Part shown: piece after piece, positions 17,462 to 60,506 of the stretch
Numbering within the stretch: the stretch's first letter is position 1
Layout: every line of letters starts with the position of its first letter
Virus record (IMG/VR): IMGVR_UViG_3300043414_000372
Coordinates: 1-64,000 of that record
Direction: 5' to 3' (one strand)
Origin: a virus
Lineage: Duplodnaviria > Caudoviricetes
DNA length: 64,000 bases
Notes under the pieces: model-generated
Databases searched by the model: none
The model's input: only the letters and a program-made list of their open reading frames with translations
Told to the model about the DNA's origin: nothing
Program-made: the position numbers and the translations under genes

Positions 17462-18046
17462 TTATTGAAAGATTTCTGGATGATCTTTGCCAAATACTTT
17501 CATGTATTTGCCCGCACCCATATCTGCTAGCATTTCAATTGGGCTACCAGGATAACTGTCACCCGGTTTAATCATACCCAATTCTCCTTGACGGACATGA
17601 ACCAATTCATGAAAAACAGTACGCATAATATCAACCATATTACGATTAGCAACGTATACCCAAACACTGTTATCGTTTTCTGAATGACGACCAGTATGAT
17701 GTCCTTCTTGTGCTTCTTCAGTATCGTAACTAAATTCAAATTTGGGAGTAGATTGTAAATTAAGTTTTTGACTTGCCCACTTAATAAATTTCTGCATTAT
17801 TGGGTTATCTTCCAAGAAGTCTGGTTCACTATCTTGTTCATCTAATTTACCTTTAACCCATTCATCAGGTGATTTTTTGAATTTATGTACAAACAAGTCA
17901 TGTAATGCTTTGCCAGTAATACGATGTTTACTAGCAATATCCTGCATTAATTTGTCAATAGTATCGTAGTCATGTTTAGCCAATGACGGCAAACGTTTTG
18001 CTAATTCAATTGCAGCGGATTCAATAATGATGTGTTCAGTAAGCAT
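17462..18046 (-). CDS. Protein with C-terminal HExxH zinc-metallopeptidase-like motif
   Basis: HELVHVRQ...E; start re-set to MLTEH (18046), 4 nt after TAAATA. Confidence 0.6.
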   Translation of the reverse strand: MLTEHIIIESAAIELAKRLPSLAKHDYDTIDKLMQDIASKHRITGKALHDLFVHKFKKSPDEWVKGKLDEQDSEPDFLEDNPIMQKFIKWASQKLNLQSTPKFEFSYDTEEAQEGHHTGRHSENDNSVWVYVANRNMVDIMRTVFHELVHVRQGELGMIKPGDSYPGSPIEMLADMGAGKYMKVFGKDHPEIFQ

Positions 18047-18059
18047 TATGTATTTATCA

Positions 18060-18143
18060 AATATGCTCACTTTATAGTCCACGGTAGCGAATCGTTTTCT
18101 AAACCCAGCAGCCGGGTCACACGGTCCTAAGGTAGGTGTGTTC
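18060..18143 (-). ncRNA. Candidate structured RNA (unassigned)
   Basis: GC-rich intergenic stretch with three possible stems (CACAC/GUGUG, ACCC/GGGU, UUCGCU/AGUGAG); no family recognised. Confidence 0.25.
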
Positions 18144-18596
18144 TTACCAAGAACTTTCTTTAAGTTCCATGGTGTGTGTATCAAATCTTTTTAATCGTGC
18201 TAAGAATTCATTAGATTCTTCTGATACTATTCCAGTTAGTTGTAGTATGATTCTATCAGAAGCACCTGCATTTGCGCTAGCATAAGAAGTTTTGTGCCAA
18301 TCAACACTATATACATCTCCTGCACTCCATCCAGTATGAATGTCTTTGTCAAAGCAATAGAAATGCCCTGGTTCCCAATCTGTTAAATGAATACAGATTC
18401 TTTTAATAGTAAAGGGATTATCTAAATTATAATGTTCTAAATTGTCTTTAATGAAAGGGGTTACTTTATTTGGTTTTTGTATATCCAAATTAATATTACA
18501 ATCTCTAAGTTTGAATAGATTGCTTATTTGTTGAAGTAAAGTATCATTGATATTACTCCAATCACCCACGAGTTTGCCTAATTTTGTGATGTTCAT
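18144..18596 (-). CDS. Hypothetical protein, cupin/hydroxylase-like C-terminus
   Basis: HLTDWEPGHF...WSAGDVY...WH...SANAG..DRIILQLTG. Confidence 0.5.
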   Translation of the reverse strand: MNITKLGKLVGDWSNINDTLLQQISNLFKLRDCNINLDIQKPNKVTPFIKDNLEHYNLDNPFTIKRICIHLTDWEPGHFYCFDKDIHTGWSAGDVYSVDWHKTSYASANAGASDRIILQLTGIVSEESNEFLARLKRFDTHTMELKESSW

Positions 18597-18629
18597 ACTG
18601 ATATTTAGTATGATATATTGGTGTTAATA

Positions 18630-19445
18630 TTAATCATCATCCTTACCACATTTGGCTCTCTTAGCTTGTGTAAGAGCACCAAAGTCAACTGGCCATTCTT
18701 GGCCTGGAGACAATTCTTTAGCACCTTGGGGAAATCCAAAATGCACACCTGCTGCTTGTTGAATCTGTGCTACAGATAATCTAAACTTAGTTAAGTCATT
18801 ACCCAAGTTAGGATAAGGAGCAACGTGGGGGAATGCCCATCCTGCTATTTCTTTGGTTTGATTATTGATAACAATTTTATAATAACCATGCGGAACAACA
18901 ACACCGTTGCCGATTTTCTTATCTTGTGCATTATATACTCCACCAACATAAACTGTGTATGGTTGATTACGCTGAACTGCCCAACCACGCACACTTGTTT
19001 CTAATAGTTTCCATATGCCACGATTCAATGAACCAGCTTGTGGGGCCATGTTAGTCATTAAGAATGATTCAAACTCAACTTGAACATCCCATGATAGATC
19101 ACCGTCCGGACTCATATGTCCTTTATCGTAACCTGTACCAGCATAATCATCTGGCTTAGGACCGTTTGATATTGATTGATCAGCAGCAAAAGCATTAGTT
19201 CTACCCACGCATCCTAGTGCGTTTTGCGGCATTAATTCATATGTTACATACTTTGGTAATTTTGCAATAGGATCATATCCAACTAGATATGCTTGACGGC
19301 AAATGGGCTGTACTGCTATTGCCGTTTGGGGGAATCCGTATGGGGCGTGTACTTGACATTGTTGAGGTGGATTTGGTGCTCGTTGTGTCCAAGCGGATGA
19401 GGCAAAAGATGTTGCCATTAACAACAATGCTAATAATTTTTTCAT
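18630..19445 (-). CDS. DNA/RNA non-specific endonuclease (NucA-like) with Sec signal peptide
   Basis: MKKLLALLLMATSFASSA signal; YDKGHMSP, NMAPQ, LNRGIW beta-beta-alpha-Me motifs. Confidence 0.9.
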   Translation of the reverse strand: MKKLLALLLMATSFASSAWTQRAPNPPQQCQVHAPYGFPQTAIAVQPICRQAYLVGYDPIAKLPKYVTYELMPQNALGCVGRTNAFAADQSISNGPKPDDYAGTGYDKGHMSPDGDLSWDVQVEFESFLMTNMAPQAGSLNRGIWKLLETSVRGWAVQRNQPYTVYVGGVYNAQDKKIGNGVVVPHGYYKIVINNQTKEIAGWAFPHVAPYPNLGNDLTKFRLSVAQIQQAAGVHFGFPQGAKELSPGQEWPVDFGALTQAKRAKCGKDDD

Positions 19446-19447
19446 GT

Positions 19448-20212
19448 TTAACTTACTTTAAATAATTTTGAATATTCTGCAAAATTTTGTTGTCTATCTT
19501 TTAATCCCTGTAAAGCTGGATTAATCTTATGTGTTACTGTTTTTGTATCTGCAAAGTTTGTAATATTTTTAGTTTTATTTTGCCAAAACCATACAGCAAT
19601 CTTTGCAGCATTTGCAGGATCAGCCGCTAGCTGTGGTTTATTTACCAAATCAAGTCCTAATGCTTGTCCTGCCATGCGATAGTTATCACGCCCAGTTAAT
19701 TGAATATAACCTCTACCATGATAACGTTCTCCGTCACCCGCATGCTTGTTGCCTAATATCTTTGCAGTCTTTGGAGCAAATTCTGGATCATATTTTTGTT
19801 TATAGTAATTACTACCACCCCTCTCATCCATATGAGTAAAGTCAAAACTCTCATGCTTTAATTGTGCTAAGAATTGTGCTAGTTCTGCTCCTTTAATGCC
19901 AGCCTGTGTTGCTACATTAGCTAAGTATTTCTCTGTACCATCTAGCATTGAAGCAGGTGCTTGTTGAGTGATAGTAGGTTGGTGTGCTAACTGAGATTGA
20001 GGTACGGTCTGTGTACCCATAGAGCCATGCGCTCCTAATGCTCCTAATGCCAATGCTCCGCCTGCAGCCCATTGTTTCCAACCTTCTTCTAAATCTTCTT
20101 CAGATAGATCGGCTGGATTGTAGCCTTGCTCAACTAGATGACGATAGTATTCATCACCTGTCCAACGTGAACCTTGTTCACCGTATTCAGTTATAAATTC
20201 TTTCGCTCTCAT
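19448..20212 (-). CDS. Glycoside hydrolase family 19 (chitinase-like lysozyme) with N-terminal extension
   Basis: AQFLAQLKHES, YHGRGYIQLTGRDNY, AVWFW, KINPALQG. Confidence 0.88.
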   Translation of the reverse strand: MRAKEFITEYGEQGSRWTGDEYYRHLVEQGYNPADLSEEDLEEGWKQWAAGGALALGALGAHGSMGTQTVPQSQLAHQPTITQQAPASMLDGTEKYLANVATQAGIKGAELAQFLAQLKHESFDFTHMDERGGSNYYKQKYDPEFAPKTAKILGNKHAGDGERYHGRGYIQLTGRDNYRMAGQALGLDLVNKPQLAADPANAAKIAVWFWQNKTKNITNFADTKTVTHKINPALQGLKDRQQNFAEYSKLFKVS

Positions 20213-20652
20213 TATGCGCGGGCTTTCTTTAGAACACTACGAATCATCCATTGATGTTTTTCGTGAGCATCTAACCTTTCAGCGATAAAGTTAGCAATAC
20301 CTTGTTTGTTTTCTTGTGTAGCTGAAGCAAAGCAATGATTAAGTAATTCAATCATTCTAGCGTTATCCTCAAACAATTCAGCAAACATTAATTCAGCACG
20401 TGGGATTTTAAGTTGGTCTTGAATGATAGTTAATTCAGCATAGCGTGTTAAGCTGCCGGGTGCATAACTATCCAATGTACGAATATATTCAGCAATTTTA
20501 TCTACTGCGCTGTATACTTCTTCATAGAAGTTGCCAAAGAATTCGTGATATTGAGGGAAGTTGTCGCCCTCTACATTCCAATGAAAGTTTTGTGCCTTGA
20601 TGGACAATGAGTTAACACTTGCCAATAATACTTTTAAATCTTCTGTTAACAT
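20212..20652 (-). CDS. dps: Dps-family ferritin-like protein
   Basis: FHWNVEG..F..YHEFF, DKIAEYIR, HEKHQWMIRS. Confidence 0.92.
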   Translation of the reverse strand: MLTEDLKVLLASVNSLSIKAQNFHWNVEGDNFPQYHEFFGNFYEEVYSAVDKIAEYIRTLDSYAPGSLTRYAELTIIQDQLKIPRAELMFAELFEDNARMIELLNHCFASATQENKQGIANFIAERLDAHEKHQWMIRSVLKKARA

Positions 20653-20654
20653 AA

Positions 20655-21245
20655 TTATCCTTTTATTCCTTTAAAGATGGCTGATTCATTTGGTACACAA
20701 TTGTTTACTCTAACTCCGCCTTTCATCTTAGTTCCTTCTTTATGCTTGCCTGTCCAGCATTTAGGATCTAAACGTACTTTTTCTTCATCAATATTAGGAT
20801 TATTAATTTGTTCTGCTACACTATTCAAATGGTCATTACTTGTAGTAACATAACTATACATCCAACCATCTAAACTTACACCCTTATCTAATTGATTTTT
20901 AATATGAATAGCATTTTTAATAATTTCACGGATCTCGCCTTGCGCCATACCATCAATTTGGTCATCCTCAGTTGTTAATGTACCAATGCGTCTTTGGCCA
21001 GAACTTTTGAACATATCATTAGTTTCTTCATATGTACTGGGTGAGGGTAAGCCAACTCCTTCTTCAACTTTCTTTTCATCATTGGCAAATTGTTTCTTAG
21101 TTGCTTTTACAATGCCACTAAAACGCTTGTTGCCTTTTTTGAAGTCACCTTCACTATCTGCTTTACTAGCATCGGCTGAGGCAGCAGTTTTGTATTGTGC
21201 TAACTTTTCGTTAGATAGTTCTGTTAGAAAATCTGTTGGTTTCAT
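20655..21245 (-). CDS. Mosaic putative head internal protein
   Basis: Start re-set to MKPTDFLTE; short modules separated by xxE linkers; ends with CWTG...GVRVNNCVP motif. Confidence 0.55.
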   Translation of the reverse strand: MKPTDFLTELSNEKLAQYKTAASADASKADSEGDFKKGNKRFSGIVKATKKQFANDEKKVEEGVGLPSPSTYEETNDMFKSSGQRRIGTLTTEDDQIDGMAQGEIREIIKNAIHIKNQLDKGVSLDGWMYSYVTTSNDHLNSVAEQINNPNIDEEKVRLDPKCWTGKHKEGTKMKGGVRVNNCVPNESAIFKGIKG

Positions 21246-21246
21246 A

Positions 21247-22608
21247 TTATTTCTTCTTATAACCTTCACTTACCTTTTTCTTAGCAGCATCCCATGCAGC
21301 ATCAGTTTTTACATTGTGTTCTTTACCACCAGCACCAATATCAGCAATTCTGCTACCAATATCTTTTTTAGTTTGTACTACGGCTTTGTTGTGCTTGTCT
21401 ACTTTACCTTGTAGCTTTTTAGCAAAGTCAATTTTGCCTTCCGCCACACCTTGCTCACTACCTTGATCCATATACCATTTAAGAATTCTTAACAACTCAG
21501 TAAGTGCTTCTTTTCCTTCAGGATCACTACAGTAGTTTTTAGCCATTCTAGCCAAGTTGTACATTGTTTGCAAGTTGCCAGTGCTTACATCACCTTCATT
21601 CATACCTATCTTACGCATCACCGCTGGAGAAGCGATTTTAGAAGCGATATTTTGTATCGTTTCTTTTTTTCTTACTTGTCCTGCCCTATTGTCCATTTTT
21701 TGTGATACATTATCATAATGTTTTGCTAATGGATTCATATAGCCTCCACCTAATGCATCATGTAACTTGGGCTCCATTGCTTGATTACGTTTGTCTGTAG
21801 CAGCCTGTGCGGCTCTTCCCAAAAGACCAGAACTAAGTTCATTAATATTTTGCTGACCGTACATATCATGAATTTGGTCAATATAGAAACTATAAAAGCC
21901 ACGGCGTTCATTATATGCTCTATCGCCTAATACTCTTTTTACTGCTAGTACAGCATCACTTACTTCTGGACCCTTCATTACTCGTAATGCGTCGGTAACA
22001 AGTGAATCAACTCTTTGTGAGCCTTCGTTCATGGCATCACTATCATGTTGCATCTCTTGACTACTGATTAGATAATCCATGACACTAACCATCATGCCTT
22101 TTGCTGCACCAATCTTCTCTGATACCCACTCAGGGAATTCAGATTGCGTAGATAATCTCTTATCTAAATCACTAGCAGCACGGGCGATAGTGTGTAAACT
22201 ATTCTTTAGTGTCTCACCTTCATGTTCACCTTGATCTAAATCATGCTTAACAAATCCAGTTCTTTTTAATCTGCCCTGCCCAGGAATAACAATCAAATCT
22301 TGTTCTGAAAGATCATCTTCATTAACTTTCTTCATATCGGATCTAGCTTCAGATTTACTTATTTTATGTTTTTTCTCAAAATCATAAGAAGTTAGGTCTT
22401 TTAAATCTTTATTAATTTCTTTGATTTTGCTTTCCGCAATGCTATTAGCGTAAGGACCTTTCTTTTTGGCCTTGCCCTTGATTACTTGTTGTACAGGTTT
22501 TAGTCCACGAACATTAGTATCTTCACGGGTTTGAGTCATCATAGGCTGTGCTACGGTTGCGACTGATCCTGCTGTTGTGGAATTTTCTATTATTTGCTTA
22601 AATCTCAT
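21247..22608 (-). CDS. Mosaic putative head internal protein
   Basis: MRFKQIIE start; repeated IAE/VNE/MNE/INE/VAE/VSE linkers; late TAAATA at 22632-22637. Confidence 0.55.
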   Translation of the reverse strand: MRFKQIIENSTTAGSVATVAQPMMTQTREDTNVRGLKPVQQVIKGKAKKKGPYANSIAESKIKEINKDLKDLTSYDFEKKHKISKSEARSDMKKVNEDDLSEQDLIVIPGQGRLKRTGFVKHDLDQGEHEGETLKNSLHTIARAASDLDKRLSTQSEFPEWVSEKIGAAKGMMVSVMDYLISSQEMQHDSDAMNEGSQRVDSLVTDALRVMKGPEVSDAVLAVKRVLGDRAYNERRGFYSFYIDQIHDMYGQQNINELSSGLLGRAAQAATDKRNQAMEPKLHDALGGGYMNPLAKHYDNVSQKMDNRAGQVRKKETIQNIASKIASPAVMRKIGMNEGDVSTGNLQTMYNLARMAKNYCSDPEGKEALTELLRILKWYMDQGSEQGVAEGKIDFAKKLQGKVDKHNKAVVQTKKDIGSRIADIGAGGKEHNVKTDAAWDAAKKKVSEGYKKK

Positions 22609-22660
22609 GACGGTTTCCCAAAGTTATAGAGTATTTATCAAAATACCACAATATAGAAAC

Positions 22661-24505
22661 TTAATAGATTTTGCCGTTTGCTTTAGCAGTTGGGGGAATT
22701 CCTGCTCTACTAGTGTTCCAATAGAAGGCTTTTGCGTTCTTTTTGATAGAATCTGGATGTACATCTACTGTTAATGCGGTGCTATATCTAGGATCATTTT
22801 TTTGTTTTTCACTTGGAATATACCCGCTAGCTTCACTTATTCCACCACGATATTGATTATCTTTAATGCCAGCATAAGGACTTACTACTGGAGTCTTTTC
22901 CGCAGCAAATTGCATGGTGTAATGCTCATCTACAGTTTTCTTCAAAAAAGTATCAGCAAAATATTTACATTGCTGGTTAAGGTCTTTGTCACTAGTTTCT
23001 ATGATATCAAACTGCCTGCTATCATTATCTTGGGTAGGATCCATATATCCGCAATAGACTTTTTTGATGCCTTTGCTGTTTATGTAATCGGTGCAACTCT
23101 CACCGAATCTTTCATCAGAAGTTCTATCATCATATTCGTTGCAAGGGCTTAATGTAGTTACTATAATACTACCTTCTGGCACTTCACCGTACTTGTTTTC
23201 ATATGTGTCAATAGCATTATGTTCAGCATGAATCCATCTACCGTGTTTGTCTTTGCTTGTTTTTGCTACTATTCTGTCATCAGGATCAATAATACAAGCA
23301 GCAACGGCATGTTCCCCTGTCTTTTCTTTTATTTCTTTTTTAACAATGTTACATAACTTATACAAAATTTCATCTAATTTTGAATTGTGATTTTCTTTAT
23401 CTTCCGCTACATTTTGCTGATTTGGTTGTTTAAATACACTATATATTTTCTGTGTATCAATACCCTTTACTCCATTTGCTTGTAATACATTTGCCACAAA
23501 TGTTCCGCAATTTTCTGCTCCTACTGAGTTAGTTGTAGGAACTGATATTGGTTTTGATAATGATACAATTTTAATATTCTGTTTAGGAAACTCCGGATCA
23601 TCTGTAACTGCGTTAGTAACATACACATCATTACCTTTATGCCCACTCATCTGTATTTGTTTTCCATCTTGTGTTATAAATCCAACATGATCATAACTCC
23701 AGCCTTTGGGTGTTTTATTACTACGAGCAAAGAATATTTTATTTGCTATTGTATTATTTTCTTTCCCTTCATCCTCATCAATGTTCTGATACATAGTTTC
23801 AACGGTCAATATCTCACTATGTAACTTGTCTCTTAAATCATATAACTTTGTTATATATCCCTGACTACGCAACATCTTATATGCTAAATTCTCGGGACCA
23901 AACTCACCACCTTTATCTAAACCTGCTTGTCTATATCTTTTGATTGTGTCTATTATATGTTTTACTTTACTATACTTTTTGGACTTGAGGGCTATCTCTA
24001 TTAAACCTAATAACTTTTCATATTTGCTTTTGGTGGCGGTCTGGTCAAAATCACTTCTACGTTTAGTGGGTATTTTTATCCACTGGTCATTCATTACACT
24101 ATATTCACCTAAACTTACAACAGGTTGTCTACTGTCTTGTACATATAATTCTACTGGAATTTTATGAATCGTTATATCATGTGTATCATTGTATATTGTT
24201 TTCTTTGCTGTAAATAATTCTCTATATACTTCATCAACAGGTAAATTACCCATGTCTACTAATATATGTAAATCTAAGTCGCTATATTTTGTGTAACTGT
24301 ATGCAGCATTGCTACCTGATATTGTAATGTCATTTACATCTAAATCATTTACTCCCAATTCTTGTAAGAAATCTTCTGCTATTTTAAGTAGTTGTTCTCT
24401 AACTTCAGGTCGCAATTTTGTTCCATTCCATAACTTAGGGTTAAGTTTGTCGTGGAATGTTACTGCGTCACTTAGTTTAAAACTATTAAGTTCTTTTAGG
24501 TTCAT
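22661..24505 (-). CDS. Multidomain protein: Pol-beta nucleotidyltransferase + permuted papain-like (NlpC/P60-type) domain + Zn-dependent deaminase
   Basis: GS..YSDLDLH and VELYVQD; HVG (23681-23689) then NCGTFV (23507); HAE (23222-23230) and TLSPC...C. Confidence 0.72.
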   Translation of the reverse strand: MNLKELNSFKLSDAVTFHDKLNPKLWNGTKLRPEVREQLLKIAEDFLQELGVNDLDVNDITISGSNAAYSYTKYSDLDLHILVDMGNLPVDEVYRELFTAKKTIYNDTHDITIHKIPVELYVQDSRQPVVSLGEYSVMNDQWIKIPTKRRSDFDQTATKSKYEKLLGLIEIALKSKKYSKVKHIIDTIKRYRQAGLDKGGEFGPENLAYKMLRSQGYITKLYDLRDKLHSEILTVETMYQNIDEDEGKENNTIANKIFFARSNKTPKGWSYDHVGFITQDGKQIQMSGHKGNDVYVTNAVTDDPEFPKQNIKIVSLSKPISVPTTNSVGAENCGTFVANVLQANGVKGIDTQKIYSVFKQPNQQNVAEDKENHNSKLDEILYKLCNIVKKEIKEKTGEHAVAACIIDPDDRIVAKTSKDKHGRWIHAEHNAIDTYENKYGEVPEGSIIVTTLSPCNEYDDRTSDERFGESCTDYINSKGIKKVYCGYMDPTQDNDSRQFDIIETSDKDLNQQCKYFADTFLKKTVDEHYTMQFAAEKTPVVSPYAGIKDNQYRGGISEASGYIPSEKQKNDPRYSTALTVDVHPDSIKKNAKAFYWNTSRAGIPPTAKANGKIY

Positions 24506-24569
24506 TTTTGGGGTCAGGCTTCTGTGGTTTAGGGGGATATTTTGGGGGCTTATGTCTAAACCAACTCAT
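24486..24569 (-). CDS. 27-aa Pro/Lys-rich upstream micro-ORF (not in ORF track)
   Basis: MSWFRHKPPKYPPKPQKPDPKNEPKRT*; ATG 4 nt after TAAATA; overlaps the start at 24505 out of frame. Confidence 0.45.
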   Translation of the reverse strand: MSWFRHKPPKYPPKPQKPDPKNEPKRT

Positions 24570-24589
24570 ATAGTATTTAGTTTTATATT

Positions 24590-24613
24590 AAAAAAGCCCC
24601 TTTCGGGGCCTTC
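24590..24613 (-). terminator. Intrinsic terminator
   Basis: GAAGGCCCC-GAAA-GGGGC followed by U6, right after the 24614 stop. Confidence 0.85.
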
Positions 24614-25540
24614 TTATGCAGCTTTGACTGATTTAACTTCGTTGCCGTCTTTGTCAACTAGTTTCAATCCCATGCCTTGCTGACGTTCCAAGAACATAGG
24701 TCCAACTGTATTCATCAAATGTTCTTGATTTTCCATACAGAAAACATATGATCCACTGTGACGTAATAGAACACGCTTGTCCATCCAGATACGACCTCCT
24801 AGATCACGCCAGTTTTCACAGAATGTCCAATCTTCACTGTAATAACGATTTTGACGAACCGCAGTGTCAAAATATGTTTTCAAGTGTTGATCAAACTTTG
24901 GATCTAATCCAATGTCGTTCTTGTATTGCTTAACTGCTGGATGAGTTTTCAATTTCTCAAATACATGTTTTTTCATTAACAAGAAACCAGTACCTGCTTT
25001 AGATACTTCTTGCAATCCGTCTGGTCCTTCTTCAGCACCATCAAATCCATTAACTACCCATTTGATAGGCATAGTTTTCATTGGGTACAATCCACCAATA
25101 ACATCTACGTCACGATTTAACAATACTAACAAGTGCCATGGCTCCCAACCAATGTCAGCGTCAACAAAGAATAAGTGTGTTGCGTCTGGCATGTCTAAGA
25201 ACTTAGCAGTTAGTGTGTTACGGGCACGACTGATAAGACTTTCATTTACCATTGTTTCTAATGTCCAGTCAATGTTTAATTGTCGGGCTGTGTTAGCCCA
25301 TTTAATGAAACTCATAAATGTTGATTCAGTCAACATACCACCATAGCAAGGCATAGCGATATGCACTTTGGTTGTACGTAGAAAGTCTACATTTACTTGT
25401 ACTTGTCCGGCTGCGGGTGCTTCAGCAGGAGCATCTGCTGCTTTTGCTGCTTGCTCTGCTGCCGCTTGTTCAGCGATTTCTTGTACCATTTCTACTGGTA
25501 CTGTTTTTTCTTCTGATGCTTTTGATTTCTTTGTTGCCAT
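24614..25540 (-). CDS. GT-A fold glycosyltransferase-like protein
   Basis: IAMPCYGG, ESLISRARN, FFVDADIGW (DxD), GGLYPMK, SEDWTFC, LRHSG. Confidence 0.75.
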   Translation of the reverse strand: MATKKSKASEEKTVPVEMVQEIAEQAAAEQAAKAADAPAEAPAAGQVQVNVDFLRTTKVHIAMPCYGGMLTESTFMSFIKWANTARQLNIDWTLETMVNESLISRARNTLTAKFLDMPDATHLFFVDADIGWEPWHLLVLLNRDVDVIGGLYPMKTMPIKWVVNGFDGAEEGPDGLQEVSKAGTGFLLMKKHVFEKLKTHPAVKQYKNDIGLDPKFDQHLKTYFDTAVRQNRYYSEDWTFCENWRDLGGRIWMDKRVLLRHSGSYVFCMENQEHLMNTVGPMFLERQQGMGLKLVDKDGNEVKSVKAA

Positions 25541-25590
25541 AAGGTCCTCTATTAAGATATAATTATTTACATCAGGAAGAGGGGTACGAA

Positions 25591-27270
25591 TTATTTTTCT
25601 TCTAAATAATCCAGGCTTTCGGGGATATTAGATTCTTCAATAGGCTCAATTGTAGCACCCATCTTCATCTTCTCATTAACTGTCATATTCATATCAGACA
25701 GTATCTTCTGTAAAGCATTTAATCTATTATTAATTGGAACATTAGCTAAGGTATTACGGATACTGCCTGCATCACTGGGTTTGATTTTAGCTAACACATC
25801 ATTAATAATCTTATCAACTACTGCGTTCTGTTGACCGATAATATTGCTTTTTTGTTTTTTTACTGGAGGGGTAACTTCAATTTCTTCAGAGTCCCAATTG
25901 TCTCTTACATAATCTTTATACACTTCTCTATTATGTTCCCAACGCTTTGCTGCTTTAGACAATTCAGGTGAATTAATATGTCTACCTAATCTTTCTAGTA
26001 TCACCGGCAATTCTTTAGCAATTATACTAAATGATTTATGCATATCTACCACACCATGCTTCTCTTTGCCAGATAAGAAATCTTTCAAATCATTTGTTTG
26101 TGATGGGTATGCTTTGCACAAATCGTATAATTCATTCTTAAGTTTATTAATGTACATGTTCTGTGTCCAACGACCACCAATACCTGCTACAATTAATCTG
26201 AATCCTTTATCTAAAGCACCATGATTGTCAACATATTTCTCAGCTTGCATTAGCATATTGTTATATACGCCAGCAATAGGTTCACTAATGTCATTGACAA
26301 CGGCTCTTAATGTAGATTCTTTACTTGTGCTTTCTACCACCGGTTGTTCTCTAAATGAACTAGGGAACAACTCAATATTATATTTTTTAGCCAATCCAAA
26401 TACAACAGGTACTGTAAGCACATGACCGGGCAACATTGCCCAAGCACCTAAACCCAATCCTCTTACAACATCTTTAAGCTGTTCGTTGGCAATATTCATT
26501 TCTTCTTTACTTACAGTTTCACCGTTGGTATAGCGTAGATATGTACCTAACATTAATTTTGATTCTTCAGCTTCTTGGCTTAAACCATTTTTTAATTTTA
26601 GTAACCAATTTTTAATGCCTTCTTTAGTTGGTATCTTGTTTTTAATATCAGTCATTGAAGGCATACTAAATCCCTCATCAACCGTTTCTACACCCATGCC
26701 AGCATCTAATAACTTAGTAACATTTGCTGCTAACTTAGGATTCTGTTGTGTAGCCGGATATAAACTCATTACCATCGCTGTCTTGCGCTTATCATTAAGT
26801 TTAGGCCACATCTCACGAATCTCACTAGCACTAGTAATCCCAGGCCCAAACTCTATGGTCGGTAGATAAGCCATATAAGCGTGTTTACTAAATGGTTGTA
26901 AGTTTTTACCCGTATACGGTTGAAAATAACTAGGACTACCATCTTTCTTTGTGCCACCTGGTTTAGGACTTTCGTTGCGGTCCTTCTCACTACGTACAAA
27001 TATTAATACATCACTATTGGGATCGTATTGACTTGTAATTTCTTCTGCTTTGAATGGACTCTTAACTTGTATAAAATGTCCAGGAGCAACACCTGCTACC
27101 TTAGCAAGTTTTTCTTTAATCGAAAAAGGGAAAGGTCTTTCTTCTTGACTATTAGTAGCAGCCACGTATACATCAGCACCGGGGAAGGCTTTTACTGCTG
27201 CTTGATATAGTGAGGCATGACCCGCATGAAACGGGTGAAAGCCTCCGGGCATCACTACTATTGTACTCAT
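25591..27270 (-). CDS. HxGH nucleotidyltransferase domain fused to LETM1-like and unknown modules
   Basis: PGGFHPFHAGH; central GLGLGAWAMLPG...ELFPSSF segment resembles the LETM1 RBD end; xxE linkers. Confidence 0.6.
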   Translation of the reverse strand: MSTIVVMPGGFHPFHAGHASLYQAAVKAFPGADVYVAATNSQEERPFPFSIKEKLAKVAGVAPGHFIQVKSPFKAEEITSQYDPNSDVLIFVRSEKDRNESPKPGGTKKDGSPSYFQPYTGKNLQPFSKHAYMAYLPTIEFGPGITSASEIREMWPKLNDKRKTAMVMSLYPATQQNPKLAANVTKLLDAGMGVETVDEGFSMPSMTDIKNKIPTKEGIKNWLLKLKNGLSQEAEESKLMLGTYLRYTNGETVSKEEMNIANEQLKDVVRGLGLGAWAMLPGHVLTVPVVFGLAKKYNIELFPSSFREQPVVESTSKESTLRAVVNDISEPIAGVYNNMLMQAEKYVDNHGALDKGFRLIVAGIGGRWTQNMYINKLKNELYDLCKAYPSQTNDLKDFLSGKEKHGVVDMHKSFSIIAKELPVILERLGRHINSPELSKAAKRWEHNREVYKDYVRDNWDSEEIEVTPPVKKQKSNIIGQQNAVVDKIINDVLAKIKPSDAGSIRNTLANVPINNRLNALQKILSDMNMTVNEKMKMGATIEPIEESNIPESLDYLEEK

Positions 27271-27719
27271 TATTGTCCGCTTGTTATTGCCTGTAATAGT
27301 GCTCTGGCTACTACACGGTCTTTTTCTTGTTCTTCATCTGACAATTGAGCATAAGGAATGTTCATTAACTTTTCACGTTGTTGAAGTTTTGCTTCTAACT
27401 TACCTGCTGCTTTTAGTTTTTCAGTGTCATCAAATTGTTCTGGATTCTCTACAAATTGTTTAGCGGTTACATTCCATCCATTATGTATCGCATCACTAAT
27501 CTTTTCGATATCAGTAACACCTGCACTAATTAACTTTAGTGCAAATTCGGCTGATTTCAAATTAGCTTGCCAACCAAATGTATTGCCTGGACTACTTCTT
27601 CCATAATGATAAGCATCATCTAATGCTTTGTCACTAATCTGTGCAAGGTGACTTATGTCCATGCTTTCGTTTATCATGTCAATATATTTTCTAAATAATT
27701 CACCAACATTCTCGTCCAT
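27270..27719 (-). CDS. RyR (ryanodine receptor repeat) domain protein
   Basis: AIHNGW...PYAQLSDEEQEKDR motif. Confidence 0.65.
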   Translation of the reverse strand: MDENVGELFRKYIDMINESMDISHLAQISDKALDDAYHYGRSSPGNTFGWQANLKSAEFALKLISAGVTDIEKISDAIHNGWNVTAKQFVENPEQFDDTEKLKAAGKLEAKLQQREKLMNIPYAQLSDEEQEKDRVVARALLQAITSGQ

Positions 27720-28256: not shown

Positions 28257-28284
28257 GATAATACTCCGTAGAGTATTTATCATT

Positions 28285-32094: not shown

Positions 32095-32736
32095 TTAGTT
32101 AACGCCGGCAACCTTTTCTTTAGTTCGGCCGTACGCGGCTATACCCAATACTGCACCCATTGCAATATGATATAGTCCAGCACCTTGCAAGGTTAACGGT
32201 TGCCACTGACTAGTAACTTGCCCATGATTTAATGCTTGTAATAGACTCCAAAGAATCGGAAACAAAATAAAATCCACAAAACATGTAGACATGTATAACC
32301 ATCCCATCATAGGGCGCCATTTTGAATTTATCCAATGCTCACTTTCTGCATCATTGGCAACTAATATTTCAGCACCTTGCGCTGCATTAGATCCTGCGCC
32401 GGTTAATACTGGATTATTACCGACGCTCATGTTCATGTTACTTGTGCCGACTGAACCCATGTTGTTTGTTGACCCACCAAAACTTGTTGATCCGAACCCG
32501 CCTGGTGTTGAATTGAAGCCCGGTGTTGGTGAACCAAAACCACTGGTTGATCCAAAGCCTCCTGTTGGTGTAGCGCCAAATGCTGAAGGCCCGCTTGAAA
32601 ATGAGTTGGTTGAGCCATAAGTACTTCCTTGTGGAAATTGTGATATAGTAGGATCGGCCGCTAATATATCGTGGTGATCATCGCTCTTTGCTATTGCTGA
32701 ATCTGTTGTTGCTTTCTGTGCTAATATAGTTGCCAT
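32095..32736 (-). CDS. Putative holin (3-TM type) with long G/S/F-rich N-terminus
   Basis: WRPMMGWLY...WQPLTLQG.GLYHIAMGAVLG..AYGRT.EK hydrophobic C-terminal domain. Confidence 0.6.
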   Translation of the reverse strand: MATILAQKATTDSAIAKSDDHHDILAADPTISQFPQGSTYGSTNSFSSGPSAFGATPTGGFGSTSGFGSPTPGFNSTPGGFGSTSFGGSTNNMGSVGTSNMNMSVGNNPVLTGAGSNAAQGAEILVANDAESEHWINSKWRPMMGWLYMSTCFVDFILFPILWSLLQALNHGQVTSQWQPLTLQGAGLYHIAMGAVLGIAAYGRTKEKVAGVN

Positions 32737-33284
32737 TATAAACCTGCCATTGATATAAATGCTTTTAATTCGCTATCTGGTTCACCGTGTAAATTAACTG
32801 TGTCTAATCCTGCACGATGACGCATCTCGTTTAATTCTTCTTCATCTTCGTTTTGTTCACGATATTCATGCGGGCTAATAGTAATTTTTTGTTTTAATAT
32901 TTCAGCATCCGCATCATAATCTTCTTCATCAATATTTATAGTCCACTCATTTACTTTTAAATCTGTTAATGTTTCTAAATCTTCTATCAATTCTACAATA
33001 CGTGCTGGAACTTTTGTTCTACGTTTCATCTCAACAAATACTAGATATTTTCCAGGACTTAATTCACCTTCACTAATACTAGCATCAATAATCCAGTCAT
33101 ATCCTCGCTCAAACCAATCAACTAAATCATCACCTGCTGCTTCACTATTAACAGTAAATGCCAAGGTGACTATATCAGCATCTCTCCCCGCCTTAGCAGC
33201 ATATTCATCTACGGAAACAGTAGGTTCAATTTGATCTACCATATCCAAATAGTCTAAGCCTTCATTAATGATTCTTCTAGTCAT
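32736..33284 (-). CDS. Hypothetical acidic protein
   Basis: ORF track; MTRRIINE start. Confidence 0.7.
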   Translation of the reverse strand: MTRRIINEGLDYLDMVDQIEPTVSVDEYAAKAGRDADIVTLAFTVNSEAAGDDLVDWFERGYDWIIDASISEGELSPGKYLVFVEMKRRTKVPARIVELIEDLETLTDLKVNEWTINIDEEDYDADAEILKQKITISPHEYREQNEDEEELNEMRHRAGLDTVNLHGEPDSELKAFISMAGL

Positions 33285-57644: not shown

Positions 57645-60506
57645 TTATAGACCGCTTAATTTTCTATAGTCTTTTAACAAATCATTAGACTCTTTCATTG
57701 GGCTACCTAAACCATCAACGCCCATACGACTCTTTTGACCATTAATAACTGGGATAGTTGTTTGACCAGTAGATTTTTGTTTATTCAATCCACCACTGAT
57801 AACTTTAGTCATAAAGTCAATGTCAGCTTCAAAAGTATCATCTGCGCTATTAGCGTATGATTCATCTACTTTTTTGTCTTTCTTGTATTTCTCGTCTTTC
57901 TTGTCATCATACTCTATGTCTTTAGTAACTTTCTTTCCTGCTTTTTCTGCTTTGTTGTCGTCTTTGCCTTTATGACCTTCATCATATTCAATATCGTTAG
58001 CAACTTTTTTACCTGCTTTTTCTGCTTTCTCATCTTTCTTTTCAGTTGATTCTTCTGAAAGCATTGATATTTTTCTGAAAAGATTAAAGAAACTTGATTC
58101 TGACATTGTTTCACATTTGCAAGGATTGCAATCACATTTTTTACAAGTGCCTTCATCTAATTCTTCTTTGCCGGCTTCTTCACCTGTAGTATCTTCTTTG
58201 CCTTCAGACGGGCTTGAATATGTTTCACCTTCTTCTTCATCTGCACCTGCATCTGCTGTTGCTAATGCTGAGTTAGCCGCATCATTGCCTTGTGTAGCAT
58301 TAGTAGAGTTAGCTGAACCATTATCAGGAGGATTATCTTCAGCTACATTGTAAGCCATTTGATCTTCTGATTCTACTTCATCAACAACTTGTTGATCACC
58401 GGATGGCTCACATCCACATTCCATCATTCCGCATTCATTGCAAGGTTCTTCACCTTCATGTGAATGACCTTCTTCACCGTGACCTTCTTCGCTTTCATAA
58501 TCACCACCACTTGGCATATCACCGCCGCCTGACAGTTTTCTCATCAATGCCATCATACCGTCATGGTCATCAACTACTTCAATTCCACCAGGAGCTTGTG
58601 TTGAGCCTTGTGGTGCGCCATAACCGTTTTGTTCGTCGCCGCCAAACAAGCCCATGCCTGCTGATTTGATGATAGATAATAATTGATCTGCTTCACCATC
58701 TTGTGCTGATACACTTACTGAATCAGGAGATCCTTGTTGACCTTTGCTGATAGAAACAGTCATACCTTCAGTAACGTCTTTACCTTCAAGTAAAGCATTT
58801 AATTGCTTGTCTAATGCTTCAAACGCAAATTCTTCTAAACGTGAATCGTAGTTTGAGTTATCAGTAAATGAACTTCCACCTACTTTAAATTTACCACCAT
58901 GTGGTGTCTTAGCAAGACCAGCAGTGAAAGCATTGCCTTCGTCCATCTCATCATGTGCGCCATAGCTAGCCATTGTGCCTACTTCAGGAGATACTTCATC
59001 AACTGCTGTGCGACCTAGTATTGGCATTTGACCATAGCACTCGTCTAGACCTTCTTTGAAGCCATCATGGTAGCAACGTGCTTCTTCCATATCATCGTGT
59101 GTACAATTGTATGGCATTTTTCTTAATGCGTGACTCTTACCTTCAAGTCTTGCTGCTTGTAAATGATGTTCCATACCTTCTTTCACTTTCTTTTTCTCAT
59201 CTTTTTTAGCAAAAGGATTTACACCTTTCTTAGGTGCTTCACCTTTCTTCTTTAAATCATTTTTACCTTTACCATCTTCAGCATAGTCAGGGATGTTGTT
59301 GTTATTTTCATCTGGCTTTTTCTTAGTATCTTTCTTAGCAAAAGGATTAACACCCTTCTTGCTTTCTAATACACCGCGATTAGCAGTACTTAGTGGGCTT
59401 GATTGAGCAAAGTGTTGTGGTGCTTCTGCTTCCTTCACTCCGTGTTGGGCAATGTTGGTTGGTTCTTCCACCGCGTGTTTTGCCATTTTTAATAATGGAT
59501 GATTACTGTCATATTTTAATTGTTGCCTTTTACCATTGATATCAATATCTAAATTACCAAAATAATCGTCATACTCAGCAGTACCTATTTCTTTGCCGTT
59601 TTTTAATACTTTGAATGTACTAACATTCATCGTGCTCCAACCTTCTGGATCATCTTGTTCTTCACTGGATATTAATTCTAATGTGTAAGGAGATTCACCT
59701 TGAGATTCATGCATCTTGCTTAATGTTTTAGCAAGTTGTGCTTGCTTTTCTGTCTTAGCAGGATAATCTTCTTTATGTGCTAACACCTTTGCTCTAAACT
59801 GAGCAGGAGTCATATCATGTGATTTTGCTTTTGCAGTGAATGCACCTTTATTTTTTGTAGCATCTTTGATCCAATTATCGCCTGTTTCTTTCATTGGTGC
59901 AACTTGTGAGCCTGCACCTGCAGCAGGTGCAGCACCCGGAGCTGGTTGACCAGTTGGAGCAGCGCCTGGCTTTTGCATTGACATTGTACCATTCTTAGCT
60001 GCTTGAACTACTGCTGGATCTTGTGTAGTGATTGCTGGCATTGAAGGATTAGCAGGATCTTTAATCATAAAAGATGGCTTTGTTGCCATTTGCTGTTGTT
60101 GCTTTTGTTGTGGTGTAGCTGGCATTGGCTGTACTGCTAAACCTGCTTCACTTAACGCTTCATCCATTTGGTCAAAGTATTCTTTAAGACTATGCTTAAC
60201 ACTAGGCTTGCCACTTGGTTTAGGTGCTTTACCTATTCCCATTGCTTTGTTTAATGCTGTGCTATCATACTCTTTTGCTTTGTCAGGATTTGGTGGACGA
60301 CCTTTGCCACGCTTTGGCTCATTTTGAGCACCAAGTTTTCCTAGACTCATACGACCAACTGGCTTACCATACTGGTCTTTAACATCTTCTGAACCGTGTT
60401 TGTTTCCATATCCACCTGGCTCTGATTTATGAACTGTACCTTTATCAGTAGTGGTTGTTGCTTCTGATAATTGGTCGAATGATTTTAATATATCTCTGAT
60501 ATCCAT
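57645..60506 (-). CDS. Large acidic low-complexity protein, putative prohead core/internal protein
   Basis: More than 15 (L/V/M)xE linkers, charged repeats, Cys clusters. Confidence 0.55.
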   Translation of the reverse strand: MDIRDILKSFDQLSEATTTTDKGTVHKSEPGGYGNKHGSEDVKDQYGKPVGRMSLGKLGAQNEPKRGKGRPPNPDKAKEYDSTALNKAMGIGKAPKPSGKPSVKHSLKEYFDQMDEALSEAGLAVQPMPATPQQKQQQQMATKPSFMIKDPANPSMPAITTQDPAVVQAAKNGTMSMQKPGAAPTGQPAPGAAPAAGAGSQVAPMKETGDNWIKDATKNKGAFTAKAKSHDMTPAQFRAKVLAHKEDYPAKTEKQAQLAKTLSKMHESQGESPYTLELISSEEQDDPEGWSTMNVSTFKVLKNGKEIGTAEYDDYFGNLDIDINGKRQQLKYDSNHPLLKMAKHAVEEPTNIAQHGVKEAEAPQHFAQSSPLSTANRGVLESKKGVNPFAKKDTKKKPDENNNNIPDYAEDGKGKNDLKKKGEAPKKGVNPFAKKDEKKKVKEGMEHHLQAARLEGKSHALRKMPYNCTHDDMEEARCYHDGFKEGLDECYGQMPILGRTAVDEVSPEVGTMASYGAHDEMDEGNAFTAGLAKTPHGGKFKVGGSSFTDNSNYDSRLEEFAFEALDKQLNALLEGKDVTEGMTVSISKGQQGSPDSVSVSAQDGEADQLLSIIKSAGMGLFGGDEQNGYGAPQGSTQAPGGIEVVDDHDGMMALMRKLSGGGDMPSGGDYESEEGHGEEGHSHEGEEPCNECGMMECGCEPSGDQQVVDEVESEDQMAYNVAEDNPPDNGSANSTNATQGNDAANSALATADAGADEEEGETYSSPSEGKEDTTGEEAGKEELDEGTCKKCDCNPCKCETMSESSFFNLFRKISMLSEESTEKKDEKAEKAGKKVANDIEYDEGHKGKDDNKAEKAGKKVTKDIEYDDKKDEKYKKDKKVDESYANSADDTFEADIDFMTKVISGGLNKQKSTGQTTIPVINGQKSRMGVDGLGSPMKESNDLLKDYRKLSGL

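What the first reader, a model, noticed from the sequence alone, without database searches (positions are those of the whole stretch)
17462..27719. Block of late proteins with capsid-targeting-like N-termini and Glu linkers: putative head-packaged, protease-released effector arsenal
Seen: N-termini MRAKEFITE (20212), MKPTDFLTE (21245), MRFKQIIE (22608), MLTEHIIIE (18046), also MTRRIINE, MRSLKQHIME and MDIRDILKSFDQLSE elsewhere. Unrelated modules are joined at (L/I/V/M)xE-(G/S/D/A) sites (VDEG, VAEG, MNEG, VAED, INES). Known: T4 internal proteins use an MKTYQEFIAE-type capsid-targeting peptide and gp21 cleaves after Glu in (I/L)xE. Inference: these are polyproteins packaged in the head, cut into separate enzymes and injected with the DNA.
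Basis: partly seen in the sequence, partly recalled or inferred. Interest (0 to 1): 0.75.

Follow-up and report, generated by a model that had tools for sequence, protein, structure and literature searches.

The report
T4-like head-loading tags, jumbo phage
An uncultured freshwater giant phage puts a 9-residue tag (MRAKEFITE type), very like the peptide phage T4 uses to load proteins into its head and then cuts off, on several unrelated proteins; packaging and cutting have not been tested.

Summary
The window is the first 64 kb of a 230-kb viral contig with a T4-type head module and a gp21-family (S77) prohead protease.

- Tag: four of the eleven genes in the block begin with a 9-residue tag ending hydrophobic-x-Glu: a zincin peptidase, a GH19 murein hydrolase with a membrane segment, and two unknowns. 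A fifth has a longer leader.
- Not chance: the tag ends at residue 9 in 6 proteins (0.9 expected), and in 13 (1.4 expected) in a complete relative.
- Widespread: it heads unrelated proteins on at least 120 viral contigs. It varies only at synonymous sites.
- Cutting motif: the same motif fills the scaffold protein (17 sites, 2.65 expected) and the capsid propeptide.
- Joints: module boundaries fall on this motif. In 37 of 51 fused relatives the joint Glu sits in or near the tag's register (p 5e-30).

The best reading is a T4-style capsid-targeting propeptide, probably also used as an internal joint. The secreted nuclease, the Dps protein, the glycosyltransferase-like protein and the two large untagged enzymes show no tag. 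No experiment shows packaging, cutting or injection. This scan has reported similar tags in other jumbo phages. I found no paper on this tag.

The parts
17462..18046 (-). p194: tag MLTEHIIIE (18020-18046), an N-terminal helical part and a C-terminal SprT/IrrE-like zincin metallopeptidase with HELVH
   Evidence: Start and tag are conserved in 120 homologs (M-x4-hydrophobic-hydrophobic-x-E|S). AF2 model pLDDT 78. Foldseek matches SprT-like and IrrE-like entries at E 6e-4 over residues 81-192.
18051..18058 (-). GATAAATA, late-type promoter-like motif 4 nt upstream of the p194 ATG
   Evidence: The genome has 28 copies, nearly all 4-27 nt upstream of ORF starts, including large structural genes and a head gene.
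19448..20212 (-). p254: tag MRAKEFITE (20186-20212), acidic spacer ending LEE|G, Gly/Ala-rich membrane-like segment (about 20021-20083), GH19 murein hydrolase domain (about 19562-19900)
   Evidence: Pfam GH19 E 1e-15. The tag matches the strict motif. The GWK + Gly/Ala module follows [LV]xE in 6 different proteins. The gene is absent at the syntenic site in relative G005. A second, untagged GH19 lies at 42342-42962.
20655..21245 (-). p196: tag MKPTDFLTE (21219-21245), basic region, joint VEE|G, C-terminal Cys-containing module
   Evidence: The G005 ortholog (670 aa) has tag MRTNEFLAE, a long insert and an added VDE|G + membrane-like module.
21247..22608 (-). p453: variant tag MRFKQIIE, multi-module protein with six [LIVM]xE[GSDA] sites
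   Evidence: Six sites against 1.95 expected, p 0.015. A 62-residue insert relative to G005 lies exactly between AMNE| and NINE|. The protein ends at VSEG, where the G005 ortholog continues with the membrane-like module.
22632..22639 (-). GATAAATA promoter-like motif 23 nt upstream of p453, heading the abutting genes p453, p196, Dps, p254 and nuclease
   Evidence: The gene ends abut or overlap.
27270..27719 (-). p149: longer leader ...ELFRKYIDMINE|S; candidate long-form tag
   Evidence: The leader is conserved in G005 (MSTELFRKYIDMLNE|S) although its length differs. Weaker case.
22661..24505 (-). p614: untagged modular enzyme (nucleotidyltransferase-like N-domain, unknown module, cytidine/dCMP deaminase-like domain, conserved C-module). 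The middle is swapped in G005 at acidic joints.
   Evidence: Pfam and PHROG hits. Breakpoints lie at NIDEDEG| and TVDE| (VAEE| in G005). No N-terminal tag, so membership is unproven.
25591..27270 (-). p559: untagged, N-terminal cytidylyltransferase-like fold starting at residue 3, variable C-terminal modules
   Evidence: The KMKMGAT module is flanked by VNE| and IEE|. Membership is unproven.
18144..18596 (-). p150 of unknown function; not part of the tag system on present evidence
   Evidence: No tag. The G005 ortholog is 227 aa and aligns only over residues 21-150 at 51% identity.
18630..19445 (-). Endonuclease_NS with a Sec-type signal peptide; not part of the tag system
   Evidence: Pfam E 3e-37. 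The N-terminus MKKLLALLLMATSFASSAW is a signal peptide by inspection.
20212..20652 (-). Dps/ferritin-like protein, untagged
   Evidence: Pfam Ferritin E 3e-22. 93% identical in G005.
24614..25540 (-). p308 (phrog_1574, glycosyltransferase-like), untagged, followed by a strong intrinsic terminator at 24590-24610
32736..33284 (-). p182 MTRRIINE...: homolog of virion structural proteins of cultured RaK2-like jumbo phages
   Evidence: phrog_13138 E 2e-21. tblastn hits CBB, GAP32 and BF genes annotated as virion structural protein; the CBB protein starts MTKRIYE.
57645..60506 (-). p953 MDIRDILKSFDQLSE...: acidic low-complexity protein with 16 [LIVM]xE[GSDA] sites
   Evidence: 16 sites against 4.55 expected, among the top three in the genome together with the scaffold.
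60517..61146 (-). p209 MRSLKQHIME...: variant tag, GATAAATA 20 nt upstream
   Evidence: The tag is not conserved in the distant G003 homolog. Weak case.

Best explanation
The 9-residue N-terminus M-(R/K)-(A/I)-x-(E/D)-(F/I/L)-(I/L/V)-x-E is most likely a capsid-targeting propeptide of the T4 kind.

Proposed mechanism:
1. The tagged proteins are made from late-type promoters.
2. The tag takes them into the scaffolding core of the prohead.
3. The gp21-family (S77) prohead protease removes the tag by cutting after the final Glu.
4. The cargo stays in the head and leaves with the DNA at infection.

Tagged cargo in the window: a zincin peptidase (p194), a GH19 murein hydrolase that would begin with a membrane segment after cutting (p254), and two proteins of unknown function (p196, p453).

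The same hydrophobic-x-Glu site also marks joints between swappable modules inside these proteins. Some of them are therefore probably cut into pieces.

Shown here: the tag, its portability, its conservation, the protease gene, motif enrichment in the scaffold, and joints in register with the tag.

Inferred: targeting, cleavage, retention in the head, and injection.
For: 1. Head machinery.
- S77 protease at genome 209974-210609, E 1e-29.
- Gene order portal, p75, p275, protease, p366, capsid protein matches T4 genes 20-67-68-21-22-23.
- The capsid protein is a gp23 homolog, E 5e-41.

2. T4 sites, read from NC_000866 (CTS also cited in PMC8442874).
- Internal proteins: MKTYQEFIAE|A.
- gp22: MLKEQLIAE|A.
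- gp24: MAKINELLRE|S.
- gp23: ...SFLTE65|A.
- The tags here end FITE, FLTE, FINE and IIIE.

3. Internal control.
- [LIVM]xE[GSDA] occurs 17 times against 2.65 expected in the scaffold-like p366, and 5 against 1.25 in the protease.
- The capsid propeptide has four such sites in its first 45 residues.

4. Position-specific excess at residue 9.
- Counts are 6 against 0.89, 13 against 1.42 and 8 against 1.31 in three genomes.
- T4, as a control, recovers its known tagged proteins.

5. Portability.
- The tag is on at least 120 viral contigs and heads unrelated proteins, including GH19+LysM, DUF6934, DUF6321, GGACT and a ~125-aa family.
- Proteins in this genome share only the first 9 residues.

6. 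Selection on the peptide.
- All synonymous codons are used, for example Ile ATA 45, ATT 26, ATC 28.
- A profile built without the tag found 98 stand-alone cluster representatives, nearly all with the tag.
- Cargo is 47-51% identical between G000 and G005, while neighbouring genes are 80-96% identical.

7. Joints.
- In 37 of 51 fused relatives the core is preceded by [LIVMF]xE within a few residues, most often (17 sites) in the same register as the tag's Glu. Background is 7.8%, p 5e-30.
- Shared modules follow ITE|, IEE|, VGE|, LEE|, VDE| and VEE| in different proteins.

8. Other lines.
- All five large tag-bearing contigs have the S77 protease.
- The tag is low-confidence (unstructured) in the AF2 model of p130.
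- GATAAATA motifs lie upstream of p453, p194 and the p130 operon.
Against: - There is no direct evidence. No cultured relative carries the tag family. RaK2, the nearest phage with a virion proteome, shows no N-terminal tag excess.
- The five contigs with the protease are relatives, so that co-occurrence is not independent evidence.
- The hydrophobic-x-Glu before a module could be a structural cap of the module, or a favoured recombination spot in acidic linkers. In the p194 model the tag lies inside a predicted helix.
- T4 internal proteins are small and basic. Here p130, p182 and p953 are acidic (pI 4.2-5.7).
- The late-promoter assignment is by motif only. TATAAATA itself is not enriched.
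Confidence: 0.6

Rival explanations
1. The N-terminal tag is real, but the internal hydrophobic-x-Glu joints are not cut. They would be acidic linker ends or helix caps where recombination swaps modules, and the multi-domain proteins would act intact. They could act in the cytoplasm late in infection, or as whole packaged proteins.
For: - Whole-block enrichment of [LIVM]xE[GSDA] is modest once the genome-wide excess is allowed for (24 against 13.5, genome 284 against 219).
- Some breakpoints are not at Glu, for example KRNP|DF.
- p614 and p559 have no tag.
- The motif in front of the membrane-like module and the p130 core is so constant that it could be part of those modules.
Against: - The same motif is strongly over-represented in the scaffold, which in T4 is the protein degraded by gp21.
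- The joint Glu peaks in the register of the tag's terminal Glu.
- A module can stand directly behind the tag or behind an internal joint.
Confidence: 0.3
2. The tag is an address or recognition peptide for something other than the prohead.
For:
- One relative has a Tat-like signal straight after the tag, and p254 has a membrane segment.
Against: - Tagged genes are scattered over the genomes and not next to one enzyme. Only 23 of 120 tag loci hold any ORF of 200 aa or more with CxxxCxxC.
- The tag's last four residues equal the T4 gp23 and internal-protein cleavage sites.
- The site type fills the scaffold.
Confidence: 0.1
3. For p254 alone: it is a signal-anchored (SAR-like) endolysin exported late by the host Sec system, and its N-terminal tag has nothing to do with the head.
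For: - GH19 domains in cultured phages are annotated as endolysins.
- The Gly/Ala-rich weakly hydrophobic segment looks like a SAR domain.
Against: - The segment starts at residue 45 here and residue 185 in a relative, not at the N-terminus.
- The genome has a separate untagged 206-aa GH19 with its own late-type motif, a better endolysin candidate.
- The same segment sits at the C-terminal parts of non-lytic proteins in G005.
- The gene is dispensable in G005.
Confidence: 0.15

Closest known systems
Phage T4 capsid targeting sequence (CTS, MKTYQEFIAE) of internal proteins IPI-III, with the short propeptides of gp24, gp22 and Alt, removed by prohead protease gp21 (Mullaney and Black 1996, as cited in PMC8442874 and PMC5694885)
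   Same: - Short (9-10 residue) N-terminal peptide shared by unrelated, fast-changing proteins.
- Ends in (F/L)(I/L)xE.
- Genome has a gp21-family protease and T4 head-gene order.
- The scaffold is full of the same site.
   Different: - 9 residues rather than 10, with consensus MRAxEFIxE.
- Many more cargo families per genome (up to 13 in a complete relative), including enzymes and a membrane-anchored murein hydrolase.
- Cargo is often acidic.
- The site also appears as an internal joint between modules, and some fused proteins keep a whole internal tag.
- Nothing has been tested experimentally.
Processed head and ejection proteins of giant phages phiKZ, 201phi2-1 and SPN3US (PMC5694885, PMC7411985, PMC10052503)
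   Same: - Homologous prohead protease cutting after Glu.
- Several inner-head proteins are processed, some at multiple sites.
- Paralogs have identical N-termini.
- Ejection protein gp47's mature part starts with a membrane helix, as p254 would after cutting at LEE|G.
   Different: - Those phages use (A/S/G)-x-E and mostly long (over 100 residue) propeptides.
- Here the tag is short and T4-like, and the phage lineage is different (DNA polymerase nearest Atu_ph07 and RaK2-like phages).
Polyvalent proteins of phages and conjugative elements (Iyer et al. 2017, as cited in PMC7824862)
   Same: - Multi-domain proteins proposed to be injected with the DNA.
- They combine enzymes such as zincin peptidases, nucleotide-acting enzymes and acetyltransferase-like domains.
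- Modules are shuffled between relatives.
   Different: - Here the modules are small and often stand alone behind a tag.
- The joints carry a defined protease-type motif.
- I did not test for the portal-associated (MuF-type) domain typical of many polyvalent proteins.

Membership tests
T4-type capsid-targeting propeptide system | Short N-terminal peptide shared by otherwise unrelated proteins of one phage | tested here: met
   Four strict tags in this genome share only residues 1-9. There is a position-9 excess in three genomes.
T4-type capsid-targeting propeptide system | Peptide ends in the prohead-protease site (hydrophobic-x-Glu) | tested here: met
   The tags end FITE, FLTE, FINE and IIIE. 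T4 sites are FIAE, LIAE, LLRE and FLTE. The same site is enriched in this phage's scaffold, 17 against 2.65.
T4-type capsid-targeting propeptide system | Genome encodes a gp21-family prohead protease within a T4-type head module | tested here: met
   PF03420 E 1e-29. Gene order matches T4. The capsid protein matches gp23 at E 5e-41. The protease is present in all five large tag-bearing contigs.
T4-type capsid-targeting propeptide system | Tag is removed by the protease after the terminal Glu | not testable with these tools
   It needs proteomics or co-expression. No computational result here bears on it.
T4-type capsid-targeting propeptide system | Tagged proteins are in the mature head and enter the host with the DNA | not testable with these tools
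   No cultured phage carries the family. Only p182's homologs are annotated as virion proteins in CBB, GAP32 and BF.
T4-type capsid-targeting propeptide system | Late expression together with head genes | tested here: inconclusive
   GATAAATA lies upstream of p453, p194 and the p130 operon, and also of structural genes. It is a motif only, and p614 lies behind a terminator.
T4-type capsid-targeting propeptide system | Cargo genes are hypervariable between close relatives | tested here: met
   p130 and p124 are 47-51% identical between G000 and G005, against 80-96% for neighbours. The GH19 gene is present in one and absent in the other, and modules are inserted or swapped.
SAR (signal-anchor-release) endolysin, for p254 | Weakly hydrophobic Gly/Ala-rich membrane segment at the extreme N-terminus of the muralytic enzyme | tested here: not met
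   The segment starts at residue 45 (residue 185 in a relative). It would become N-terminal only after cutting at LEE|G.
Polyvalent proteins (Iyer et al. 2017) | Very large single polypeptides combining many conflict-related domains, often with a portal-associated MuF-type domain | tested here: inconclusive
   p614 has 3-4 modules and p194 is a stand-alone zincin. No MuF-type hit was seen in Pfam scans of block proteins, but I did not search for one specifically.

The most novel reading that the evidence does not exclude
In this abundant clade of freshwater jumbo phages the prohead-protease site may serve two roles. It would be both the cutting point and a portable joint, so that head-delivered effectors are built, swapped and released as cassettes bounded by hydrophobic-x-Glu. 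That would amount to a phage polyprotein system. Its products would include a murein hydrolase that gains an N-terminal membrane anchor only after cutting, and proteins that expose export signals after tag removal.
Probability: 0.35. Interest if true: 0.8.

Novelty: new variant of a known kind. Interest (0 to 1): 0.6.

Why it matters
If the tag works like the T4 capsid-targeting sequence, the set of proteins that these abundant uncultured freshwater phages inject could be read straight from sequence, by taking every ORF that starts M-R-A-x-E-F-I-x-E. That would give a catalogue of candidate early-acting effectors, such as peptidases, cell-wall hydrolases and redox enzymes, for phages with no cultured host.

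The joints in register with the tag suggest that the protease site also organises how such cargo evolves, as swappable cassettes. I found this described neither for T4 nor in the papers I read on phiKZ-like phages.

The tag could also serve as a packaging handle for phage engineering, as the T4 sequence already does.

Tried and rejected
- Megablast of the block, and tblastn of p453 and p130, against cultured phages found no match. No virion proteome can therefore be borrowed.
- The whole RaK2 genome was scanned for N-terminal tags and showed no excess.
- The T4 late promoter TATAAATA is not enriched (5 found, 9.2 expected). The variant GATAAATA is the motif placed in front of genes.
- Sigma-70 promoter and terminator scans gave no more than chance overall.
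- The AF2 model of the p130 family was searched against PDB and BFVD. No known fold matched, only an uncharacterised phage homolog. The protein-atlas look-up of p130 gave nothing useful.
- Complex prediction of the protease with the tagged N-terminus gave no verdict, neither support nor evidence against.
- A literature search for the tag strings found no paper holding MRAKEF or MRASEF.
- One PHROG call failed on a wrong coordinate.
- Radical-SAM leader idea: the linkage check was weak, 23 of 120 loci by a loose CxxxCxxC test, so it is kept only as a minor rival.
- The idea that the four tagged proteins are simply paralogs was rejected. BLAST finds no similarity beyond residues 1-9, except between p124 and p130.

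Full report
**Setting**

The window is the first 64 kb of a 229,851-bp IMG/VR viral contig, rated about 61% complete.
- Its family-B DNA polymerase is nearest to those of Atu_ph07, Vibrio phage 2.275.O and RaK2-like jumbo phages, at about 45% identity.
- Nothing in the finding region matches a cultured phage at the DNA level.
- All genes in 17462-27719 lie on the minus strand.
- At 207-213 kb the contig carries a T4-type head module. A protein at 209974-210609 matches Peptidase_S77 (T4 gp21 family), E 1e-29.
- The gene order portal, p75, p275, protease, p366, capsid protein mirrors T4 genes 20-67-68-21-22-23.
- The 398-aa capsid protein matches T4 gp23 at E 5e-41.

**The observation**

- A strict pattern, M-x(2-4)-[DEQ]-[FILM]-[ILM]-x-E, finds four true N-termini in the 230-kb contig: MRAKEFITE (254 aa), MKPTDFLTE (196 aa), MRASEFLTE (124 aa) and MRAKEFINE (130 aa). 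It finds one internal chance hit.
- These proteins share nothing beyond residues 1-9, except the 124/130 pair.
- Counting [FILVMH][ILVM]xE by the residue at which it ends gives a spike at residue 9. The counts are 6 against 0.89 expected here, 13 against 1.42 in a complete 338-kb relative (G003) and 8 against 1.31 in a close syntenic relative (G005).
- T4, used as a positive control, returns its known tagged proteins. RaK2 shows no spike.

**The tag is widespread and selected as a peptide**

By my own calculation far fewer than one hit is expected by chance.
- Across 99 distinct loci every synonymous codon is used, for example Ile ATA 45, ATT 26, ATC 28. Selection therefore acts on the peptide, not the RNA.
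- Most carriers are a ~125-aa family, often in tandem. The same nine residues also head a GH19+LysM protein, DUF6934 and DUF6321 proteins and others.
- Tagged proteins in G003 and G005 include a GGACT-like enzyme and a protein with a Tat-type signal right behind the tag.
- To avoid circularity I built a profile of the ~125-aa family without its first ten residues and searched 1.8 billion cluster representatives. There were 690 hits. Of the best 150, 98 are stand-alone proteins, and nearly all of these begin M-(R/K)-(A/I/L)-x-(E/D)-(F/I/L/V)-(I/L/V)-x-E. Most of the exceptions look like miscalled starts or truncated sequences.
- Between G000 and G005 these cargo proteins are only 47-51% identical with identical or near-identical tags. 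Neighbouring genes are 80-96% identical.
- In the AF2 model of the 130-aa member the tag has low confidence, while the core is moderately well predicted.

**Link to the prohead protease**

From the T4 record I read these sites; the T4 targeting sequence is also quoted in PMC8442874:
- MKTYQEFIAE|A, twice.
- MKTFKEFIKE|D.
- gp22: MLKEQLIAE|A.
- gp24: MAKINELLRE|S.
- The gp23 maturation site: ...SFLTE65|A.

The tags here end FITE, FLTE, FINE and IIIE. The phage itself supplies an internal control.
- Against composition-preserving shuffles, [LIVM]xE[GSDA] occurs 17 times against 2.65 expected in p366. This is the coiled-coil protein in the position of the T4 scaffold gp22, which gp21 degrades.
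- The motif occurs 5 times against 1.25 in the protease.
- The capsid protein has four hydrophobic-hydrophobic-x-Glu sites in the 45 residues before the conserved core.
Next comes p453 from the block (6 against 1.95).
- All five large tag-bearing contigs (191-338 kb) encode the S77 protease. They are relatives, so this is not independent evidence.

**Joints**

Comparison with the syntenic relative G005 shows cassette-like changes at Glu sites.
- p453 has a 62-residue insert lying exactly between AMNE| and NINE|.
- p453 ends at VSEG, where the G005 ortholog runs on into a Gly/Ala-rich membrane-like module.
- That module (GWK plus about 20 small hydrophobic residues) follows LEE|, VEE|, VDE|, VDE|, VEE| and VAE| in six different proteins, including p254.
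- A basic Cys-containing module follows the tag (ITE|) in one protein and IEE| or VGE| inside two others.
- An acetyltransferase-like module stands alone behind a tag on one contig. In the G005 counterpart of p614 it is an internal module, between NIDEEE| and VAEE|.
- The strongest test comes from the profile search. Fifty-two representatives carry the ~125-aa core as a module of a longer protein, in most cases the C-terminal one. In 37 of 51 internal junctions a [LIVMF]xE precedes the core, against a background of 7.8% (p 5e-30). The Glu position peaks in exactly the register of the tag's Glu9.
- A few of these fused proteins keep a whole internal MRAKEFIxE.
- Not every breakpoint is at Glu. 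Over the whole block the motif is only mildly enriched once the genome-wide excess is allowed for.

**What the block contains**

Tagged:
- p194 has a C-terminal half that folds as a SprT/IrrE-like zincin with HELVH.
- p254 consists of tag, spacer, membrane-like segment and GH19.
- p196 and p453 are of unknown function.
- p149 has a longer conserved leader ending MINE|S.

Untagged:
- An Endonuclease_NS with a Sec signal peptide.
- A Dps-like ferritin.
- p150.
- The glycosyltransferase-like p308.
- The modular enzymes p614 (nucleotidyltransferase-like, unknown module, deaminase, C-module) and p559 (cytidylyltransferase-like N-domain).

A second, untagged 206-aa GH19 at 42342-42962 with its own promoter-like motif is the better endolysin candidate. 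This leaves p254 as an extra, dispensable enzyme that is absent from G005.

**Timing**

- TATAAATA is not enriched.
- GATAAATA occurs 28 times in the contig, nearly always 4-27 nt upstream of an ORF start on the coding strand. These ORFs include large structural genes and the small head gene after the portal.
- Copies lie upstream of p453 (heading the abutting p453, p196, Dps, p254, nuclease string), upstream of p194, at 28274-28281, and upstream of the operon holding p130 and p124.
- A strong terminator follows p308, so p614 is transcribed separately from an unidentified promoter.
- 'Late' is therefore plausible for the tagged genes but rests on a motif.

**Reading**

The most economical explanation is a T4-style capsid-targeting propeptide, cut off by the S77 protease, on a varied and fast-changing cargo. 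The same site probably serves as an internal cut or joint. I put 0.6 on the tag reading and about 0.35-0.45 on real internal cleavage.

After cutting at LEE|G, p254 would begin with a membrane segment. The same is reported for the mature part of ejection protein gp47 of SPN3US (PMC5694885).

Rivals:
- The joints may be linkers that are never cut.
- The tag may address another partner. The phage has a ClpA-like ATPase, and an earlier scan note linked a different tag to a radical-SAM enzyme. A loose linkage check here was negative.
- p254 may be a signal-anchored endolysin.

**Known and new**

- The T4 targeting sequence, variable internal-protein loci and processed head proteins of phiKZ-like phages are established (PMC3012670, PMC5694885).
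- Injected polyvalent proteins have been proposed (PMC7824862).
- I found no paper holding this tag.
- This scan has already reported T4-like tags in other uncultured jumbo phages, and noted p124 and p130 of this same genome. Within the scan it is therefore a repeat of a theme.
- What this case adds: an unbiased profile test of tag conservation, the scaffold as an internal control for the site, and the in-register joints in fused relatives.

Noticed in passing
window 42342-42962 (-): Second GH19 protein, 206 aa, with no tag and no membrane segment, and GATAAATA 18 nt upstream. It is the likely true endolysin and lies beside tail-fibre-like genes.
   Followed up: partly
window 24590-24610 (-): Strong intrinsic terminator (GGCCCCGAAAGGGGC followed by six T) after p308. 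It splits the block into separate transcription units.
   Followed up: partly
G000 genome 107972-110248 (-), outside the window: 758-aa protein with 16 [LIVM]xE[GSDA] sites (4.4 expected) and GATAAATA 5 nt upstream. It is a candidate multiply cut head-core protein with no recognisable N-terminal tag.
   Followed up: no
L127:602-1365 (G000 112601-113364): The ~125-aa tagged family also has an invariant Glu (nearly invariant S-x-E) about 18 residues before a conserved C-terminal tail, SPVxxFKGYKRK or SPVAKPKKNKYGV. This may be a second cut site or a C-terminal signal.
   Followed up: partly
L158:17068-17964 (G003): A tagged protein (MRISEIIVE) has a twin-arginine (Tat) type signal directly after the tag. 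Removing the tag would expose an export signal.
   Followed up: no
L167:1601-2155 (G005) and L158:5843-6322 (G003): G005 has an Fe/Mn superoxide dismutase beginning MRDIITLLEE, an N-terminus that looks tag-like. G003 has a GGACT/AIG2-like enzyme with a tag-like N-terminus. Redox and small-molecule enzymes may be among the cargo.
   Followed up: no
P0282, P0309, P0326, P0356, P0381: Long metagenomic proteins keep a complete internal ...(R/K)(E/K)MRAKEFIxE just before the C-terminal ~125-aa core. They are either true fusions with an internal tag or upstream ORFs read through into a tagged gene.
   Followed up: partly
L034:1104-2432, L043:409-1314, L074:1640-2251: A small basic module with two Cys (...GKSRPGRVKRAGASC...MYHWCANMK...) moves between the N- and C-terminal ends of different tagged proteins. 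No family was recognised.
   Followed up: no
window 18630-19445 (-): Phage-encoded non-specific Endonuclease_NS with a Sec signal peptide, in the same string of abutting genes as the tagged proteins. It is presumably exported rather than packaged.
   Followed up: no
window 28991-31252 (-): 753-aa ClpA/ClpB-like AAA+ ATPase just upstream of the block. Iyer et al. (PMC7824862) suggested that such chaperones might aid virion assembly or protein translocation in jumbo phages.
   Followed up: no
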